A stretch of DNA of 64,000 nt from Escherichia coli (GTDB lineage: Bacteria; Pseudomonadota; Gammaproteobacteria; Enterobacterales; Enterobacteriaceae): assembly GCF_003018235.1 (NCBI RefSeq), contig NZ_CP027437.1; one strand, 5' to 3'. Numbering within the stretch: the first letter of the stretch is position 1; every line of letters starts with the position of its first letter. The notes under the pieces were generated by a model, which saw only the letters and a list, made by a program, of their open reading frames with translations, was not told the origin of the DNA and searched no databases. The position numbers and the translations under genes were made by a program. Below are positions 1,951-58,231 of the stretch, piece by piece.

Positions 1951-3259
<1,309 letters not shown>

Positions 3260-3284: not shown

Positions 3285-3319
3285 GTAGGCCGGATTGGGC
3301 GTTTACGCCGCATCCGGCA
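3285..3319. repeat. REP palindrome (GTAGGCCGGATTGGGCGTTTACGCCGCATCCGGCA)
   Basis: Imperfect palindrome with GCCGGAT/ATCCGGC arms. Confidence 0.45.
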
Positions 3320-13177: not shown

Positions 13178-13196
13178 TCCTTCCCCCTCACCCTAA

Positions 13197-13218
13197 CCCT
13201 CTCCCTCAAGGGAGAGGG
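13197..13218 (+). terminator. hairpin CCCTCTCCC-TCAA-GGGAGAGGG between nrdD and nrdG (no T-run)
   Basis: 9-bp perfect stem read from sequence; lacks a U-tract so probably a stability or attenuation element rather than a full terminator. Confidence 0.3.
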
Positions 13219-13361
13219 TACCGTTCCGTGCCCCTTCCTGATTCCCGACATAATGAATTGCCTCTGGCCAGTTGGTGTCGTCGCAAGGTGGCAAATGCGT
13301 AGCATCGGGGGACTTCGCCCGTACGCACCAGAGCAGTCATGGCGTCAATTGAGAATCGAAA

Positions 13362-13826
13362 ATGAACTTTCATCAGTACTATCCTGTCGACATCGTCAAC
13401 GGCCCCGGCACTCGCTGCACCCTGTTTGTCTCCGGGTGTGTTCATGAATGCCCCGGTTGCTATAACAAAAGCACCTGGCGGGTAAATTCCGGTCAGCCAT
13501 TTACCAAAGCAATGGAAGACCAGATCATTAACGATCTAAATGACACTCGCATCAAACGCCAGGGGATTTCCCTCTCCGGCGGCGATCCGCTGCATCCGCA
13601 AAACGTGCCGGATATTCTGAAACTGGTACAACGAATCCGCGCCGAATGTCCGGGTAAAGACATTTGGGTGTGGACAGGCTATAAACTCGACGAACTCAAC
13701 GCTGCGCAAATGCAGGTTGTTGATTTGATTAACGTACTGGTCGACGGCAAATTTGTGCAGGATTTAAAAGACCCTTCCCTGATCTGGCGCGGCAGCAGCA
13801 ATCAGGTGGTGCATCATTTGCGTTAG
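13362..13826 (+). CDS. nrdG: anaerobic ribonucleotide reductase activating protein (radical SAM)
   Basis: 154-aa ORF; cysteine cluster CTLFVSGCVHECPGC. Confidence 0.9.
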   Translation: MNFHQYYPVDIVNGPGTRCTLFVSGCVHECPGCYNKSTWRVNSGQPFTKAMEDQIINDLNDTRIKRQGISLSGGDPLHPQNVPDILKLVQRIRAECPGKDIWVWTGYKLDELNAAQMQVVDLINVLVDGKFVQDLKDPSLIWRGSSNQVVHHLR

Positions 13827-14117
13827 TCACTCATCCAGCCGTTTAGTCGCGTCTTCATAAACGGCTGAGTTCTCTCTCTTACCAATAGCTATCACCAACA
13901 CGAGCAACTCTTTATCGTTAACCTGATAAACCAGGCGATATCCCTGTGTGCGCAGCTTAATTTTGTAGCAGTCCGGTAAATCCCGCAGTTTAGCCGATGG
14001 ATTGCGCGGCCTTTTCAGCACATCCTCAAGCTTTTTTTTAAATTGTTCCCGGACTGTCACGCCCAGTTTTTGCCACTCTTTCAGCGCCCGCGGATCAAAC
14101 GCCAGCTCATAGTTCAT
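13827..14117 (-). CDS. RelE/ParE-family mRNA interferase toxin
   Basis: 96-aa product from ATG 14117 (MNYELAFDPRALKEWQKLG...CYKIKLRTQGYRLVYQV...IGKRE); about 60% identical by eye to K-12 RelE as recalled; overlaps the antitoxin stop by 11 nt. Confidence 0.8.
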   Translation of the reverse strand: MNYELAFDPRALKEWQKLGVTVREQFKKKLEDVLKRPRNPSAKLRDLPDCYKIKLRTQGYRLVYQVNDKELLVLVIAIGKRENSAVYEDATKRLDE

Positions 14118-14349
14118 CCAGTCGGACCTTAATGGCCTCTTGTGGGTTGGCCAGTCGTTCCCTGACAGTGCGTAACAAGGCTTCTTCACTATCACTGACA
14201 GTGAGCGTTTTTACCGGCATTCGTCCATTTTCCGCAACGTACTGAAACAGCAGTCGCACTGCTTCAGTAGGCGTGATATTTAATTTTTCCAGCACCGCAT
14301 AAGCCTCATTTTTCAGTTTGTCATCCAGGCGGACGTTAAGTGTGGCCAT
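14107..14349 (-). CDS. RelB/DinJ-family antitoxin
   Basis: 80-aa ORF MATLNVRLDDKLKNEAYAVLEKLNITPTEAVRLL...; strong resemblance to K-12 RelB as recalled; RBS GGAGG upstream. Confidence 0.8.
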   Translation of the reverse strand: MATLNVRLDDKLKNEAYAVLEKLNITPTEAVRLLFQYVAENGRMPVKTLTVSDSEEALLRTVRERLANPQEAIKVRLDEL

Positions 14350-14373
14350 TATGCCTCCGGTAATTATGAAAAG

Positions 14374-14406
14374 TGTAATGCATTATAGCATTACATATGC
14401 ATTACA
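14374..14406. promoter_or_regulatory. candidate RelB/RelE operator: three copies of TGTAATGC/GCATTACA
   Basis: TGTAATGC at 14374-14381, GCATTACA at 14388-14395 and 14399-14406 (direct repeats one helical turn apart), 25-57 bp upstream of the antitoxin ATG. Confidence 0.45.
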
Positions 14407-14507
14407 TTCATTTCTGGAAAACGCCTCGCAAAAATGAGGACGACACGCAGGAATATGCCGTGGTGAAGATAGATATTGCGGTGATTTTACGAAGGGAGAA
14501 GAAAGCG

Positions 14508-14533
14508 TTGGGCGGTAACGTTTCACCGCCCAA
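14508..14533 (-). terminator. hairpin TTGGGCGGT/ACCGCCCAA downstream of cybC
   Basis: 9-bp stem with 8-nt loop immediately after the cybC stop; U-rich tract on the minus-strand transcript is imperfect. Confidence 0.35.
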
Positions 14534-14540
14534 TAAGGAA

Positions 14541-14930
<390 letters not shown>

Positions 14931-17007: not shown

Positions 17008-17037
17008 GCCGGATGCGGCGTAAACGCCTTATCCGGC
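17008..17037. repeat. REP palindrome (GCCGGATGCGGCGTAAACGCCTTATCCGGC)
   Basis: Canonical REP inverted repeat between yjgA and mpl. Confidence 0.5.
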
Positions 17038-21660: not shown

Positions 21661-23163
21661 TTACGCCGCAATGGCGTTCATGATCGCCGGAACGGAAAGC
21701 TCTGCCAGCGGGATCTCCGCCACCTGTTTGCGATCGCGCATGATAATCACCCGGTCGGCATAGCCCACCAGCTCTTCCAGTTCAGAGGAGATCACCAGCA
21801 GCGCCAGACCATCAGCGCACAGCGTTTCAATCAGGCGGATGATCTCGGCATGCGCACCAACGTCAATGCCGCGCGTTGGCTCATCGAGGATCAGAAATTG
21901 CGGTCGGGTCAGTAGCCAACGTGAAAGCAACACTTTTTGCTGATTGCCGCCGGAGAGAAATTCAATCGGTTGTTCAGTTGAAGGTGTGCGAATGCCAAGC
22001 TGGCGGATAAAGCGTTGGGCAATCTCTTGCTGTTCTTTGCGGGAAATCGGTCGTAGCCAGCCGCGCTGGGCCTGGAGAGCGAGGATGATATTTTCCCGCA
22101 CCGAGGCGGCGGCGATAATGCCATCGGTTTTCCTGTCTTCCGGGCAGAAGCCAATGCCAAGAACCGAAGCCTGATGTGGCGAGCGTAGCGTTTGCGCTTT
22201 GCCTTTTATCAACGCCGTGCCGCTATCAGCAGGTTTGATACCGAAGATCACTTCGGCGGTTTCGGTACGTCCTGATCCCAGCAAGCCTGCCAGACCGACG
22301 ATCTCGCCGGGGCGTACTTCGAGATCAAACGGTGCGATCGTTCCTTTTTTGCCGTAATTTTTGAACGCGGCAACGGGTTTGTCGCTCAGCAATGTTCGTC
22401 CGGCACGCTGTAGCGCGTGGGTGTCCAGCTCGCGCCCCAGCATCATTTTTACCAGTTCGATCTGCGGTAGCTCGCGGGTTTCCCGACAGCCTACGAAACT
22501 GCCGTTGCGTAAGACGGTGATCCGATCGCTGACCTGATAGACCTGATCGAGAAAGTGAGTGACAAAGATCAGGCTGACGCCGCGATCGCGCAACTGACGC
22601 ATCAGGCCAAACAGTAACTCTACTTCCTGAGTGTCGAGGCTGGCGGTGGGTTCATCGAGGATCAGCACTTTGGCAGAGAGATCGATAGCCCGGCAAATGG
22701 CGACGATTTGCTGCATCGCGACTGAAAAGCGGTTGAGCGGTTCCCGCACGTCGAGAGAGAAACCGTAAGATGCCATCAGTTCGGTGGCGCGCTTTTCCAT
22801 CTCTTTACGGCGTAGAAGGCCGAAACGTTTGGGTTCGCGACCTATGAATAGATTATCAGCGACCGACATATTGGGTAGCAGGTTGACTTCCTGATAGACG
22901 GTGCCGATGCCGAGTTGTTGTGCGTGGGCGGTATTTTTCGGTGAGATAGTCTGGCCTTCCAGCCAGATGGTGCCACGATCGGCGTGGTAGACACCGGTTA
23001 ATGCTTTGATTAGCGTTGATTTTCCCGCCCCGTTTTCACCGAGCAGCGCCATAATTTCGCCACAGCGCAGGCTGAAATCAACGTTGTCTAACGCTTTGAC
23101 GCCGGGGAAAAATTTACTTAATCCTTCGGTGCGGAGGATTTCCTGGTGTTGGTTAGTATTCAT
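21661..23163 (-). CDS. ytfR: sugar ABC transporter ATP-binding protein (two ABC domains)
   Basis: 500-aa product from MNTNQHQEIL with RBS GGGGG upstream; Walker A GENGAGKST and a second ABC domain. Confidence 0.85.
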   Translation of the reverse strand: MNTNQHQEILRTEGLSKFFPGVKALDNVDFSLRCGEIMALLGENGAGKSTLIKALTGVYHADRGTIWLEGQTISPKNTAHAQQLGIGTVYQEVNLLPNMSVADNLFIGREPKRFGLLRRKEMEKRATELMASYGFSLDVREPLNRFSVAMQQIVAICRAIDLSAKVLILDEPTASLDTQEVELLFGLMRQLRDRGVSLIFVTHFLDQVYQVSDRITVLRNGSFVGCRETRELPQIELVKMMLGRELDTHALQRAGRTLLSDKPVAAFKNYGKKGTIAPFDLEVRPGEIVGLAGLLGSGRTETAEVIFGIKPADSGTALIKGKAQTLRSPHQASVLGIGFCPEDRKTDGIIAAASVRENIILALQAQRGWLRPISRKEQQEIAQRFIRQLGIRTPSTEQPIEFLSGGNQQKVLLSRWLLTRPQFLILDEPTRGIDVGAHAEIIRLIETLCADGLALLVISSELEELVGYADRVIIMRDRKQVAEIPLAELSVPAIMNAIAA

Positions 23164-23186
23164 AGTTTCCCCCGTTGTAAAGCGTG

Positions 23187-23290
23187 CGCCAGATAAGACA
23201 CAACTGCGTCGCATCAGGCATCTCGCACAACCGCCGGATGCGGCGTGAATGCCTTATCCGGCGGCCCACAAGTCGGCATCAGGCATTGAT
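23187..23290. repeat. BIME (cluster of REP palindromes)
   Basis: GCCAGATAAGACA...GCATCAGGC, GCCGGATGCGGCGTGAATGCCTTATCCGGC and GGCATCAGGCATTGATGCCC palindromes in tandem. Confidence 0.5.
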
Positions 23291-23295
23291 GCCCC

Positions 23296-24252
23296 TCAAT
23301 ACCCCATGTTTTTCTTCTTCTCTAACTCTTCTTTTGCGGTATCAGGCAGGTAAAGGGTGGACTTGGTCAGCGTCAGCTTTTCAGGCATGGTGCCGTCTTT
23401 TTTGTATTTCTCCAGCGCGTCGAAAGCAGGACCTGCCATGTTCGGCGTCAGTTCAACACTGGCGTTCGCTTCGCCATCAATCATCGCTTTGTAGATATCC
23501 GGTACGCCATCAATGGAACCCGTGAGGATATCTTTACCCGGCTTCAGGCCCGCTTCTTTAATTGCCTGAATTGCGCCAATCACCATGTCATCGTTATGGG
23601 CGTAAACCATGCAGATGTTTTTGCCGTTGTTTTCTGCTTTGATAAAGCTCTCCATGACTTCTTTGCCTTTACTGCGGGTGAAGTCACCTGACTGCGAGCG
23701 GATAATTTTGATGTTTGGCGCATTCTTAATGGCTTCGGCAAAGCCTTTCTTACGGTCAATGGCGACGCTGGCCCCAACAGTGCCCTGCAACTCCACCACG
23801 TTGCATGGTTTGCCATTCACTTCTTTTACCAGCCAGTCACCAATCAACTTGCCTTCGAGGATGTTGTCGGCGGTGACAGTGGTCATATAGAGAGATTTGT
23901 CTTTCACATCGATGGAACGGTCAAGCAAGAAGACCGGGATTTCGGCATCTTTCGCCTCTTTTAATACCGGCTCCCAACCCGTCGCTACCACCGGAGCGAT
24001 AAAGATCGCATCCACCCCTTGCGCGACGAAGGAACGTACCGCTTTAATCTGGTTTTCCTGCTTTTGCTGACCATCGGCAATTTTCAACGTAATTCCGCGC
24101 TTTTCGGCTTCACTTTTCGCCACATTGGTTTCTGCGGCGCGCCAGCCGGATTCCGATCCGACCTGCGAAAATCCAACGGTTAATGGAGCGGCCAACGCCA
24201 TAGACGACATGGCTGCCGAGACTGCAGAGACTACAAGTAAGCGTTTCCACAT
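23296..24252 (-). CDS. ytfQ: periplasmic sugar (galactofuranose)-binding protein
   Basis: 318-aa ORF with signal peptide; periplasmic binding protein fold. Confidence 0.9.
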   Translation of the reverse strand: MWKRLLVVSAVSAAMSSMALAAPLTVGFSQVGSESGWRAAETNVAKSEAEKRGITLKIADGQQKQENQIKAVRSFVAQGVDAIFIAPVVATGWEPVLKEAKDAEIPVFLLDRSIDVKDKSLYMTTVTADNILEGKLIGDWLVKEVNGKPCNVVELQGTVGASVAIDRKKGFAEAIKNAPNIKIIRSQSGDFTRSKGKEVMESFIKAENNGKNICMVYAHNDDMVIGAIQAIKEAGLKPGKDILTGSIDGVPDIYKAMIDGEANASVELTPNMAGPAFDALEKYKKDGTMPEKLTLTKSTLYLPDTAKEELEKKKNMGY

Positions 24253-32721: not shown

Positions 32722-32820
32722 TGCCGGATGCGGCGTAAACGCCTTGCCAGGCCTACAAAATCGTCCAAAATCAATATATTGTGGGGACTGCGTAGGCCTG
32801 ATCGGCATAGCGCATCAGCC
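32722..32820. repeat. BIME (two REP palindromes)
   Basis: GCCGGATGCGGCGTAAACGCCTTGCCAGGCCTAC and GTAGGCCTGATCGGCATAGCGCATCAGCC. Confidence 0.5.
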
Positions 32821-39587: not shown

Positions 39588-39689
39588 GGCCTACAAATCA
39601 TCAACCGCATCCGACACTTTTGTCGGATGCGATGCTGGCGCATCTTATCCGTCCTACAAGTCATACACCGTAGGCCGCGCATCCTGCAG
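39588..39689. repeat. REP-like palindromes between cpdB and ytfH
   Basis: CGGCCTACAA...GCATCCGACA...TGTCGGATGC...GTAGGCCGCGCATCC inverted repeats. Confidence 0.4.
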
Positions 39690-42870: not shown

Positions 42871-42895
42871 GCTGGATGGCATTGCGCCATCCAGC
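42871..42895. terminator. bidirectional terminator hairpin (GCTGGATGGC/GCCATCCAGC) between convergent ytfE and cycA
   Basis: 10-bp perfect stem, 5-nt loop. Confidence 0.5.
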
Positions 42896-55628: not shown

Positions 55629-55641
55629 TCTGTCGTTTATA

Positions 55642-55675
55642 CCGGATAGCGTGGAGTAGTTCGCGCTATCCGGCG
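55642..55675 (+). terminator. hairpin CCGGATAGCG/CGCTATCCGG after ulaG
   Basis: 10-bp perfect stem about 15 bp after the ulaG stop; no clear T-run. Confidence 0.35.
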
Positions 55676-58197: not shown

Positions 58198-58231
58198 GCC
58201 GGATGCGGCGCGAGCGCCTTGTCCGGCCTAT
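58198..58231. repeat. REP palindrome (GCCGGATGCGGCGCGAGCGCCTTGTCCGGCCTAT)
   Basis: Canonical REP inverted repeat between yjfN and aidB. Confidence 0.5.

What the first reader, a model, noticed from the sequence alone, without database searches (positions are those of the whole stretch)
23187..23290. REP/BIME density: at least seven REP-type palindromes in the window, one of them used as the IS target
REP palindromes occur at 1951-1977, 3285-3319, 17008-17037, 23187-23290, 32722-32820, 39588-39689 and 58198-58231. The IS110-family element chose one of them, so the remaining REPs are potential landing sites for the same RNA-guided element if their sequence matches the target-loop guides (ATCAGGCCT-ACG type ends occur at 32746-32757 and 58222-58231).
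Basis: partly seen in the sequence, partly recalled or inferred. Interest (0 to 1): 0.2.

Follow-up and report, generated by a model that had tools for sequence, protein, structure and literature searches.

The report
E. coli REPs; one hosts IS621

Summary
The window is E. coli chromosome, pyrB to rlmB, collinear with K-12. All seven listed intervals are genuine REP/BIME repeats in intergenic DNA. They make six ancestral loci, against about 4.9 expected from the genome average, so the density is ordinary.

The flagged interval 23187-23290 is the BIME between ytfQ and ytfR. It forms three hairpins and gives a threshold-level Rfam naRNA4 hit, which is a generic two-REP signature.

An intact 1,280-bp IS621-family element (1978-3257) sits in the tail of the ridA-mgtA REP. 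K-12 has the empty site ATCAGGC-CT-ACGTG. Its bridge RNA (1992-2169) has all four guide segments identical to the published IS621 bridge RNA.

The only free exact target is 32792-32802 on the minus strand, ATCAGGCCTAC followed by GCA.

Junction searches in 5,426 complete E. coli genomes agree. IS621 occupies that exact site in 124 genomes, the ridA-mgtA site in 295, the ortholog of 32746-56 in 4, and the other tested REPs in 0. It does not occupy any REP unit that the flagged BIME has in this window. Ten other copies examined in other genomes sit at nine distinct sites: eight Y-REP tails and one guide-like non-REP site.

Everything matches published IS621 and REP biology.

The parts
1951..1977 (+). 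Y-type REP (GCCTGATGCGCTACGCTTATCAGGCCT) of the ridA-mgtA BIME. Its tail ATCAGGC-CT is the left half of the IS621 target.
   Evidence: intact in K-12
1978..3257 (+). IS621-family (IS110) insertion sequence, 1,280 bp including one copy of the CT core. It is 97.5% identical to canonical IS621.
1992..2169 (+). Bridge RNA gene in the left end. It differs from the published 177-nt wild-type bridge RNA at 4 positions, none of them in a guide segment.
   Evidence: against the sequence in the Durrant supplement
2041..2049 (+). Left target guide ATCGGGCCT. It has the same sense as the target top strand ATCAGGCCT, with a G:T wobble at position 4.
   Evidence: mechanism from PMC11208160
2066..2072 (+). 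Right target guide TGCGTAG, the reverse complement of CTACGCA. GTAG is the core 4 nt and UGC is the extension.
   Evidence: PMC11208160
2115..2123 (+). Left donor guide ACAGTATCA, matching the right-end terminus ACAGTATCT.
2150..2157 (+). Right donor guide region (TTTGCAAG). CAAG complements the CTTG of the circle junction CT-TGTAT.
2170..3150 (+). IS110-type DEDD recombinase, 326 aa, with 4 aa differences from canonical IS621.
   Evidence: Pfam PF01548 and PF02371
3285..3319 (-). Z-type REP, second unit of the split ridA-mgtA BIME. Its tail ATCCGGCCTAC (3285-3295, minus strand) is a 1-mismatch near-cognate site.
   Evidence: 0 of 5,426 genomes have IS621 here
17008..17037 (+). Single Z-type REP between yjgA and mpl. 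It has no CT-core tail. K-12 has two more REP units here.
23164..23295 (-). ytfQ-ytfR intercistronic BIME (the flagged interval): Y-type REP 23188-23219, Z-type REP 23233-23262, and a half-REP mini-hairpin 23270-23293. It contains no IS621 target.
32723..32756 (+). msrA-proximal REP with tail GCCAGGCCTAC (2 mismatches). The ortholog ACCAGGCCTAC is occupied by IS621 in 4 genomes.
32792..32819 (-). Y-type REP whose tail (32792-32802, minus strand) is the only free exact IS621 target in the window, ATCAGGCCTAC followed by GCA.
   Evidence: occupied in 124 of 5,426 genomes
39588..39689 (.). Degenerate three-unit BIME between cpdB and ytfH. The best site is ATCCGTCCTAC (2 mismatches).
   Evidence: 0 genomes occupied
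58198..58231 (+). Single Z-type REP between aidB and yjfN with tail GTCCGGCCTAT (3 mismatches).
   Evidence: 0 genomes occupied

Best explanation
The seven intervals are ordinary E. coli REP/BIME elements: short GC-rich imperfect palindromes in the 3' or intercistronic spacers of genes.

The flagged one lies within the galactofuranose ABC-transporter operon, between the binding-protein gene ytfQ and the ATPase gene ytfR. By analogy with REP325 in yjdMN, it most likely acts in the transcript as a 3' hairpin block and partial terminator. That would favour ytfQ mRNA over the downstream genes. This step is inferred and was not tested here.

One REP, the ridA-mgtA Y-type unit, carries an intact IS621-family element. 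IS621 chooses its site through its bridge RNA, not through the hairpin. [quoted passage not shown] The element recombines at the CT core with its own circle junction ACAGTAT-CT-TGTAT.

Only REPs whose tail reads ATC(A/G)GGCCTAC are therefore good landing sites. In this window that means one free site, 32792-32802 on the minus strand. Z-type or mutated tails are poor targets or not targets at all.
For: - Insertion anatomy and the empty K-12 site.
- The guide segments are identical to the published wild-type IS621 bridge RNA: against the supplement text.
- The base-pairing rules, the natural target ATCAGGCCTAC, the tolerated position-4 mismatch and the GCA flank preference were shown experimentally in PMC11208160.
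- Nine distinct sites of the identical recombinase in other genomes: eight are Y-REP tails reading ATCAGGCCT|AC or one mismatch from it. One is a non-REP site inside a gene, ATCGGGTCT|AT, which carries the guide-encoded G at position 4. A further copy in the closest genome lies at ATCAGGCCT.
- Site occupancy in 5,426 genomes tracks guide match: 295 (ridA-mgtA, exact), 124 (32792-32802, exact plus GCA), 4 (ACCAGGCCTAC ortholog), and 0, 0, 0 for the sites with 1 (position-4 C), 2 and 3 mismatches.
- Both the variant and the canonical IS621 sit at the identical msrA-paeA position, which implies at least two independent insertions.
- The focal BIME gives three stable hairpins on the mRNA strand (MFE -59.7 kcal/mol, z = -3.05) and matches a generic Z+Y REP covariance model.
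- REP325 acts as both terminator and stabiliser in a tandem operon (bioRxiv 10.64898/2026.03.23.713779).
Against: - The regulatory role of the ytfQ-ytfR BIME rests on analogy only. The same preprint stresses that REP effects depend on context.
- Occupancy counts are not corrected for phylogeny. Most of the 295 and 124 genomes could descend from a few insertion events.
- Z-type tails (ATCCGGCCTAC) are used occasionally elsewhere: in NT1N25 and in entries of the Durrant supplement. The zero at 3285-3295 therefore does not prove that site cannot be used.
- The variant apical hairpin between the two target guides has not been tested for function.
Confidence: 0.9

Rival explanations
1. The recombinase protein recognises the REP hairpin structure itself, as proposed before 2024 for REP-targeting IS elements. 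Every REP in the window would then be an equivalent landing site.
For: Nearly all natural copies lie in REPs. Older literature framed REP targeting as recognition of a palindrome (PMC1525189).
Against: - Insertion is always at the same nucleotide of the tail sequence, outside the stem.
- Structurally equivalent Z-type or mutated REPs at 3285, 39622 and 58198 are empty in 5,426 genomes. The units of the focal BIME present in this window are also empty.
- One copy lies in a coding sequence with no REP but a guide-like 11-mer.
- Reprogramming the loop retargets the enzyme (PMC11208160).
Confidence: 0.02
2. The element at 23187-23263 is a dedicated naRNA4-type nucleoid-associated non-coding RNA gene that organises the chromosome with HU.
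For: Rfam RF02564 hit at 61.6 bits against a gathering score of 59.5. PMC4550694 proposed such a role for REP325 transcripts.
Against: - The model is simply a Z-REP hairpin, a linker and a Y-REP hairpin, and the score barely passes.
- The locus is ytfQ-ytfR, not yjdM-yjdN.
Confidence: 0.05
3. The occupancy numbers (295, 124, 4, 0) reflect clonal inheritance of a few old insertions and say little about site preference.
For: Many of the top hits have identical identity values, which suggests related lineages. The two ytfR-ytfQ cases are sister isolates.
Against: Two sequence types of the element (1,280-bp variant and 1,279-bp canonical) occupy the identical msrA-paeA position. The ranking agrees with the independent experimental insertion profile in BL21(DE3), where 129 of the 173 insertion sites read ATCAGGCCTAC and, together with the two ATCGGGCCTAC sites, took 96% of detected insertions.
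Confidence: 0.3

Closest known systems
IS621 (IS110 family) of E. coli: REP-specific insertion (Choi, Ohta & Ohtsubo 2003, cited in PMC1525189) and bridge-RNA mechanism (Durrant et al. 2024, PMC11208160; Hiraizumi et al. 2024, PMC11208158)
   Same: The ends, the CT core, the donor junction ACAGTATCT|TGTAT, the natural target ATCAGGCCTAC and all four guide segments are the same. The recombinase has the two-domain DEDD/Tnp architecture. This window's exact insertion site (TACGCTTATCAGGCCTACGTGATTCCTGCAA) is already listed among the natural targets in the Durrant supplement.
   Different: This is a 97.5%-identical allele with 4 amino-acid changes. The apical hairpin between the left and right target guides is 1 nt longer and has 2 substitutions, and the first bridge-RNA nucleotide is T instead of A. 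No change of specificity is expected or seen.
E. coli REP / BIME (palindromic units of Y and Z types)
   Same: Arm consensus, imperfect stem, extragenic location, alternating orientation within clusters, and orthology with K-12 BIMEs.
   Different: Nothing of substance. Copy number per locus differs from K-12 at yjgA-mpl, ytfQ-ytfR, cpdB-ytfH and nrdD-nrdG, which is normal strain-to-strain turnover.
REP325 / naRNA4 (yjdM-yjdN)
   Same: Z+Y REP pair inside an operon between two tandem genes. Passes the Rfam naRNA4 model.
   Different: Different locus. It has two and a half units rather than six repeats of a pair. No experimental data exist for this one.
IS1397 (IS3 family) and ISPpu9/ISPpu10 (IS110 family, Pseudomonas putida), other REP-targeting insertion sequences
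   Same: They use REPs as abundant, harmless intergenic landing pads.
   Different: From general knowledge, not tested here: IS1397 is a DDE element that inserts into the REP loop. ISPpu9 and ISPpu10 target Pseudomonas REPs with their own guide RNAs.

Membership tests
E. coli REP/BIME | An imperfect palindrome of about 30-40 nt with GCC(G/T)GATG ... CATC(A/C)GGC arms | tested here: met
   Strict scan: 9 hits against 0.36 expected.
E. coli REP/BIME | Extragenic location: 3' of genes or intercistronic | tested here: met
   All seven intervals fall between ORFs or K-12 gene orthologs.
E. coli REP/BIME | Alternating orientation of units within a cluster | tested here: met
   23188-23219 is canonical on the minus strand and 23233-23262 on the plus strand. 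32723-32756 (+) faces 32792-32819 (-).
E. coli REP/BIME | Dispersed multicopy family across the genome | tested here: met
   The same units occur at six loci in the window, at K-12 orthologs, and at the flanks of IS621 copies in nine unrelated loci.
IS110 family / IS621 | Recombinase with an N-terminal DEDD (RuvC-like) domain and a C-terminal Tnp domain | tested here: met
   PF01548 (87 bits) and PF02371 (90.5 bits).
IS110 family / IS621 | No terminal inverted repeats. A short core (CT) is shared by target and donor and flanks the element. | tested here: met
   The junctions read ...GGCCT|TGTATT and ...GTATCT|ACGTG. The K-12 empty site has a single CT.
IS110 family / IS621 | The left end encodes a bridge RNA whose two internal loops are complementary to the target and to the donor | tested here: met
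   174 of 178 aligned positions match the published wild-type bridge RNA, and all guide segments are identical. Complementarity to the flanks was read directly.
IS110 family / IS621 | A sigma-70 promoter is rebuilt across the RE-LE circle junction | tested here: met
   Sequence level only. Joining 3257 to 1978 gives TTGCAG-N17-TATTAT (read), consistent with PMC11208160. Expression was not tested.
IS110 family / IS621 | Transposition activity of this particular copy | not testable with these tools
   Indirect only: the ORF is intact and the identical protein occurs at nine or more distinct sites in other genomes.
naRNA4 (RF02564) | Covariance-model score above the gathering threshold | tested here: met
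   61.6 bits against 59.5. This is marginal.
naRNA4 (RF02564) | Derivation from REP325 in the yjdM-yjdN spacer, and HU binding | tested here: not met
   The locus is ytfQ-ytfR. HU binding cannot be tested here.

The most novel reading that the evidence does not exclude
Target erosion. The K-12 syntenic 64 kb carries eight ATC[ACG]GGCCTAC REP tails, while this IS621-bearing strain keeps only three (one occupied, two free). The others are deleted or mutated precisely in the tail: for example CCGGCCTAC has become CCGGCGGCCCAC at 23259-23269, and units have been lost at yjgA-mpl and nrdD-nrdG. This could reflect selection on hosts of active IS621 to lose landing sites, or IS-mediated REP-REP deletions, rather than neutral BIME turnover.
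Probability: 0.05. Interest if true: 0.4.

Novelty: already known. Interest (0 to 1): 0.08.

Why it matters
It matters little beyond annotation. The window is a textbook natural example of bridge-RNA-guided insertion into a REP.

The useful outcome is a corrected map. There is one real free IS621 landing site in the window (32792-32802, minus strand), and it is independently occupied in 124 sequenced E. coli genomes.

The junction-query method gives a quick way to test whether any predicted landing site is actually used in nature.

Tried and rejected
- A loose fuzzy REP regex returned mostly coding-sequence noise. It was replaced by an arm-plus-stem scan with shuffles and a motif-cluster scan.
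- The K-12 RefSeq tables do not list REP features, so curated REP names could not be used. The K-12 DNA was aligned instead.
- The '>=80% coverage' count (1,587 genomes) is not locus-specific, because the IS alone makes up 86% of that query. It was discarded in favour of 320-nt flank-plus-left-end junction queries.
- Choi et al. 2003 (PMC166490) is not held. It is cited only through PMC1525189.
- A literature search for classical malE REP mRNA-stability papers gave nothing useful.
- The full genome of the source strain is not available. All copies of the element in that genome could therefore not be enumerated, and the closest genome and identical-protein loci were used as substitutes.

Full report
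**Identity of the window.** The window is E. coli chromosome. It is collinear, in reverse orientation, with K-12 MG1655 4,410,189-4,472,418 at 96-98.5% identity and runs from pyrB to rlmB. Rfam finds the expected landmarks: the mgtA Mg riboswitch, the rpsF leader, STnc450 and ES239.

**Checking the observation.**
- Each of the seven intervals contains REP-type imperfect palindromes with the arms GCC(G/T)GATG...CATC(A/C)GGC.
- A strict scan (each 7-nt arm with at most 1 mismatch, at least 9 of 12 stem complementarity) gives 9 hits against 0.36 expected in Markov shuffles, maximum 3. Seven of the nine are REPs. The two others (42871, 55641) are unrelated hairpins.
- A motif-cluster scan recovers the more degenerate units at 32722-32820 and 39588-39689 and shows that no REP locus was overlooked.
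- All intervals lie between genes and are orthologous to K-12 BIMEs, with some units gained or lost.
- 1951-1977 and 3285-3319 are two halves of one BIME split by the IS, so there are six ancestral loci.
- K-12 has 355 annotated REP elements (PMC4550694), which gives 4.9 expected per 64 kb and P(>=6) = 0.37. The repeats are real and far above chance for random sequence, but the density is the normal E. coli density.

**The flagged interval.**
- Positions 23164-23295 are the spacer between ytfQ (stop at 23296-23298) and ytfR (start at 23163), both on the minus strand. The two genes belong to the galactofuranose ABC-transporter operon.
- On the mRNA strand the spacer folds into three hairpins: a half-REP mini-hairpin, a Z-type REP and a Y-type REP. 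The MFE is -59.7 kcal/mol, z = -3.05, and 0 of 200 shuffles fold as well.
- The Rfam naRNA4 hit (61.6 bits against a gathering score of 59.5) aligns to exactly this Z-hairpin, linker, Y-hairpin pattern. It is a generic BIME signature, not an ortholog of REP325, which lies between yjdM and yjdN.
- Recent work on REP325 found no measurable nucleoid compaction. [quoted passage not shown]
- The same role, more ytfQ binding-protein mRNA than downstream transporter mRNA, is the best inference for this BIME. It was not tested here.

**The insertion sequence.**
- Positions 1978-3257 are an IS621-family element annotated as such in many RefSeq genomes. It has a 326-aa recombinase carrying PF01548 and PF02371.
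- K-12 has the empty site ...GCCTGATGCGCTACGCTTATCAGGCCTACGTGATTCC.... The window alignment breaks at 1977/3256 with the CT duplicated.
- The junctions are ATCAGGCCT|TGTATTAT and ACAGTATCT|ACGTG. The target was therefore ATCAGGC-CT-AC(GTG) in the tail of a Y-type REP, and the donor (circle) junction is ACAGTAT-CT-TGTAT.
- Joining the ends gives TTGCAG-N17-TATTAT. This is the promoter that is reconstituted only in the excised circle (read; described in PMC11208160).
- The element is 97.5% identical to canonical IS621, with 4 amino-acid changes.

**Guides.**
- The published 177-nt wild-type IS621 bridge RNA (Durrant supplement) aligns to window 1992-2169 with four differences. These are the first nucleotide, and two substitutions plus a 1-nt insertion in the apical hairpin between the two target guides.
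- The four guide segments are identical: LTG ATCGGGCCT (2041-2049), RTG (TGC)GTAG (2066-2072), LDG ACAGTATCA (2115-2123) and the RDG region (2150-2157).
- Durrant et al. established the following:
  - The natural target is ATCAGGCCTAC. Position 4 forms a tolerated rG:dT pair against the guide-encoded ATCGGGCCTAC.
  - A GCA flank on the 3' side is preferred.
  - In BL21(DE3), 144 of 173 insertion sites were in REPs and 129 read ATCAGGCCTAC.
- That frequency predicts about 1.8 exact sites per 64 kb. The window has two, one occupied and one free.

**Which REPs in the window are targets?**

| Site (strand) | Sequence | Mismatches to ATCRGGCCTAC | Genomes with IS621 here (of 5,426) |
|---|---|---|---|
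| ridA-mgtA, 1969-1977 + 3258-3259 (+), occupied in the window | ATCAGGCCT\|AC | 0 | 295 |
| 32792-32802 (-) | ATCAGGCCTAC + GCA | 0 | 124 |
| 3285-3295 (-) | ATCCGGCCTAC | 1 | 0 |
| 32746-32756 (+) | GCCAGGCCTAC | 2 | 4 (target there reads ACCAGGCCT\|AC) |
| 39647-39657 (+) | ATCCGTCCTAC | 2 | 0 |
| 58221-58231 (+) | GTCCGGCCTAT | 3 | 0 |
| 17008-17037 | best ATCCGGCAAAC, no CT core | 3 | not tested |
| 23164-23295 (flagged BIME) | best sites, none with a CT core | 3 | 0 in any unit present in the window |

- Searching ATCRGGCCTAC gives exactly one free perfect site, 32792-32802 on the minus strand.

**How natural occupancy was tested.**
- Each query was 160 nt of unique flank running up to the core T, fused to the first 160 nt of the element. 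I searched it against 5,426 complete E. coli genomes and counted the genomes in which one place covers at least 80% of the query.
- The msrA-paeA exact site was verified in three strains:
  - GPEC856 carries the variant element (100% identical junction, annotated IS621-family transposase between paeA and msrA).
  - Strain 1585m1 carries the canonical element.
  - RM11911 carries a canonical-type element (1,326 bp).
  - All three show ATCAGGCCT|ACGCA.
- For the flagged BIME I used flank-only queries that would catch an insertion anywhere in the spacer.
  - In the minus orientation no genome has an insertion.
  - In the plus orientation two sister isolates do. There the IS sits in an additional Z-type REP (ATCCGGCCT|ACACA) within an expanded spacer that the window does not have.
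- Occupancy follows guide complementarity, not 'REP-ness'.
- The same site is occupied by two sequence types of the element. This implies at least two independent insertions, although most of the counts are probably clonal.

- The full source genome is not available. I therefore looked up the exact recombinase sequence in public assemblies and read the junctions.
- That gave ten places and nine distinct sites.
  - Six sites have ATCAGGCCT|AC at Y-REP tails.
  - Two are Y-REP tails with one mismatch (ATCAGTCCT and ATCATGCCT).
  - One lies inside a FUSC-family gene with no REP but with ATCGGGTCT|AT.
- That last site carries the guide-encoded G at position 4 and is already in the Durrant natural-target list.
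- The second copy in the closest genome, CFSAN018748, follows mtr at ...TTATCAGGCCT.
- No copy lies at a site unrelated to the loop sequences.

**Comparison with what is known, and verdict.**
- Every defining feature tested for E. coli REP/BIME and for IS621/IS110 is met (see the membership table).
- This window's own insertion site is among the natural targets in the Durrant supplement.
- REP targeting by IS621 has been known since 2003, and its RNA-guided basis since 2024.
- The finding is a correct recognition of ordinary repeats plus a known mechanism, with wrong specifics about which REPs match. Novelty: already known. Interest: low.

**The one speculative thread.** This IS621-bearing strain keeps only 3 of the 8 ATC[ACG]GGCCTAC tails present in the K-12 syntenic region. 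This is most likely ordinary BIME turnover.

Noticed in passing
window 13822-14532: About 0.7 kb between nrdG and cybC is absent from K-12. It encodes a ParE/YafQ-like toxin (13830-14195, minus strand, PF05016) preceded by a RelB/DinJ-like antitoxin ORF. It also contains a non-REP 1-mismatch IS621-like 11-mer, ATCACGCCTAC, at 14267-14277 (minus strand) inside the antitoxin ORF.
   Followed up: partly
window 14544-14927 (-): cybC (cytochrome b562, PF07361) is an intact 128-aa ORF here, whereas it is annotated as a pseudogene in K-12.
   Followed up: partly
window 13183-13361: The nrdD-nrdG spacer is unrelated to the K-12 spacer. K-12 has a two-REP BIME there. The window has a CCCTCACCCTAACCCTCTCCC...GGGAGAGGG palindromic repeat instead (Box C-like, named from memory). 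The same repeat type occurs in the expanded ytfR-ytfQ spacer of strain NT1N25 (L016).
   Followed up: partly
window 17008-17037 vs K-12 4457185-4457270: K-12 has additional REP units at yjgA-mpl, including an exact ATCAGGCCTAC and an ATCCGGCCTACGCA tail. Overall the K-12 syntenic region has 8 ATC[ACG]GGCCTAC tails against 3 in the window, counting the occupied one.
   Followed up: partly
L019 (E. coli RM11911, msrA-paeA IS621): This IS621 copy is 1,326 bp, about 47 bp longer than canonical. A repeat of bridge-RNA 5' sequence appears within the left end.
   Followed up: no
L017 (E. coli CFSAN018748, downstream of mtr): The second IS621 copy of the closest genome is itself interrupted by an IS3-family ISEc31, which leaves the transposase annotated as a C-terminally truncated pseudogene.
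   Followed up: no
window 2053-2064: The apical hairpin between the two target guides of the bridge RNA is AGGUUUUCAACCU here and GGGUUCUAACC in canonical IS621. Both fold as a small stem-loop. The variant allele is widespread: its exact protein is indexed in 2,565 blocks of the public-assembly collection.
   Followed up: partly
window 42871-42895 and 55641-55674: Two GC-rich perfect hairpins passed the REP-arm filter but are not REPs. They are probably intrinsic terminators after ytfE/cycA and ulaG/ulaR respectively.
   Followed up: no
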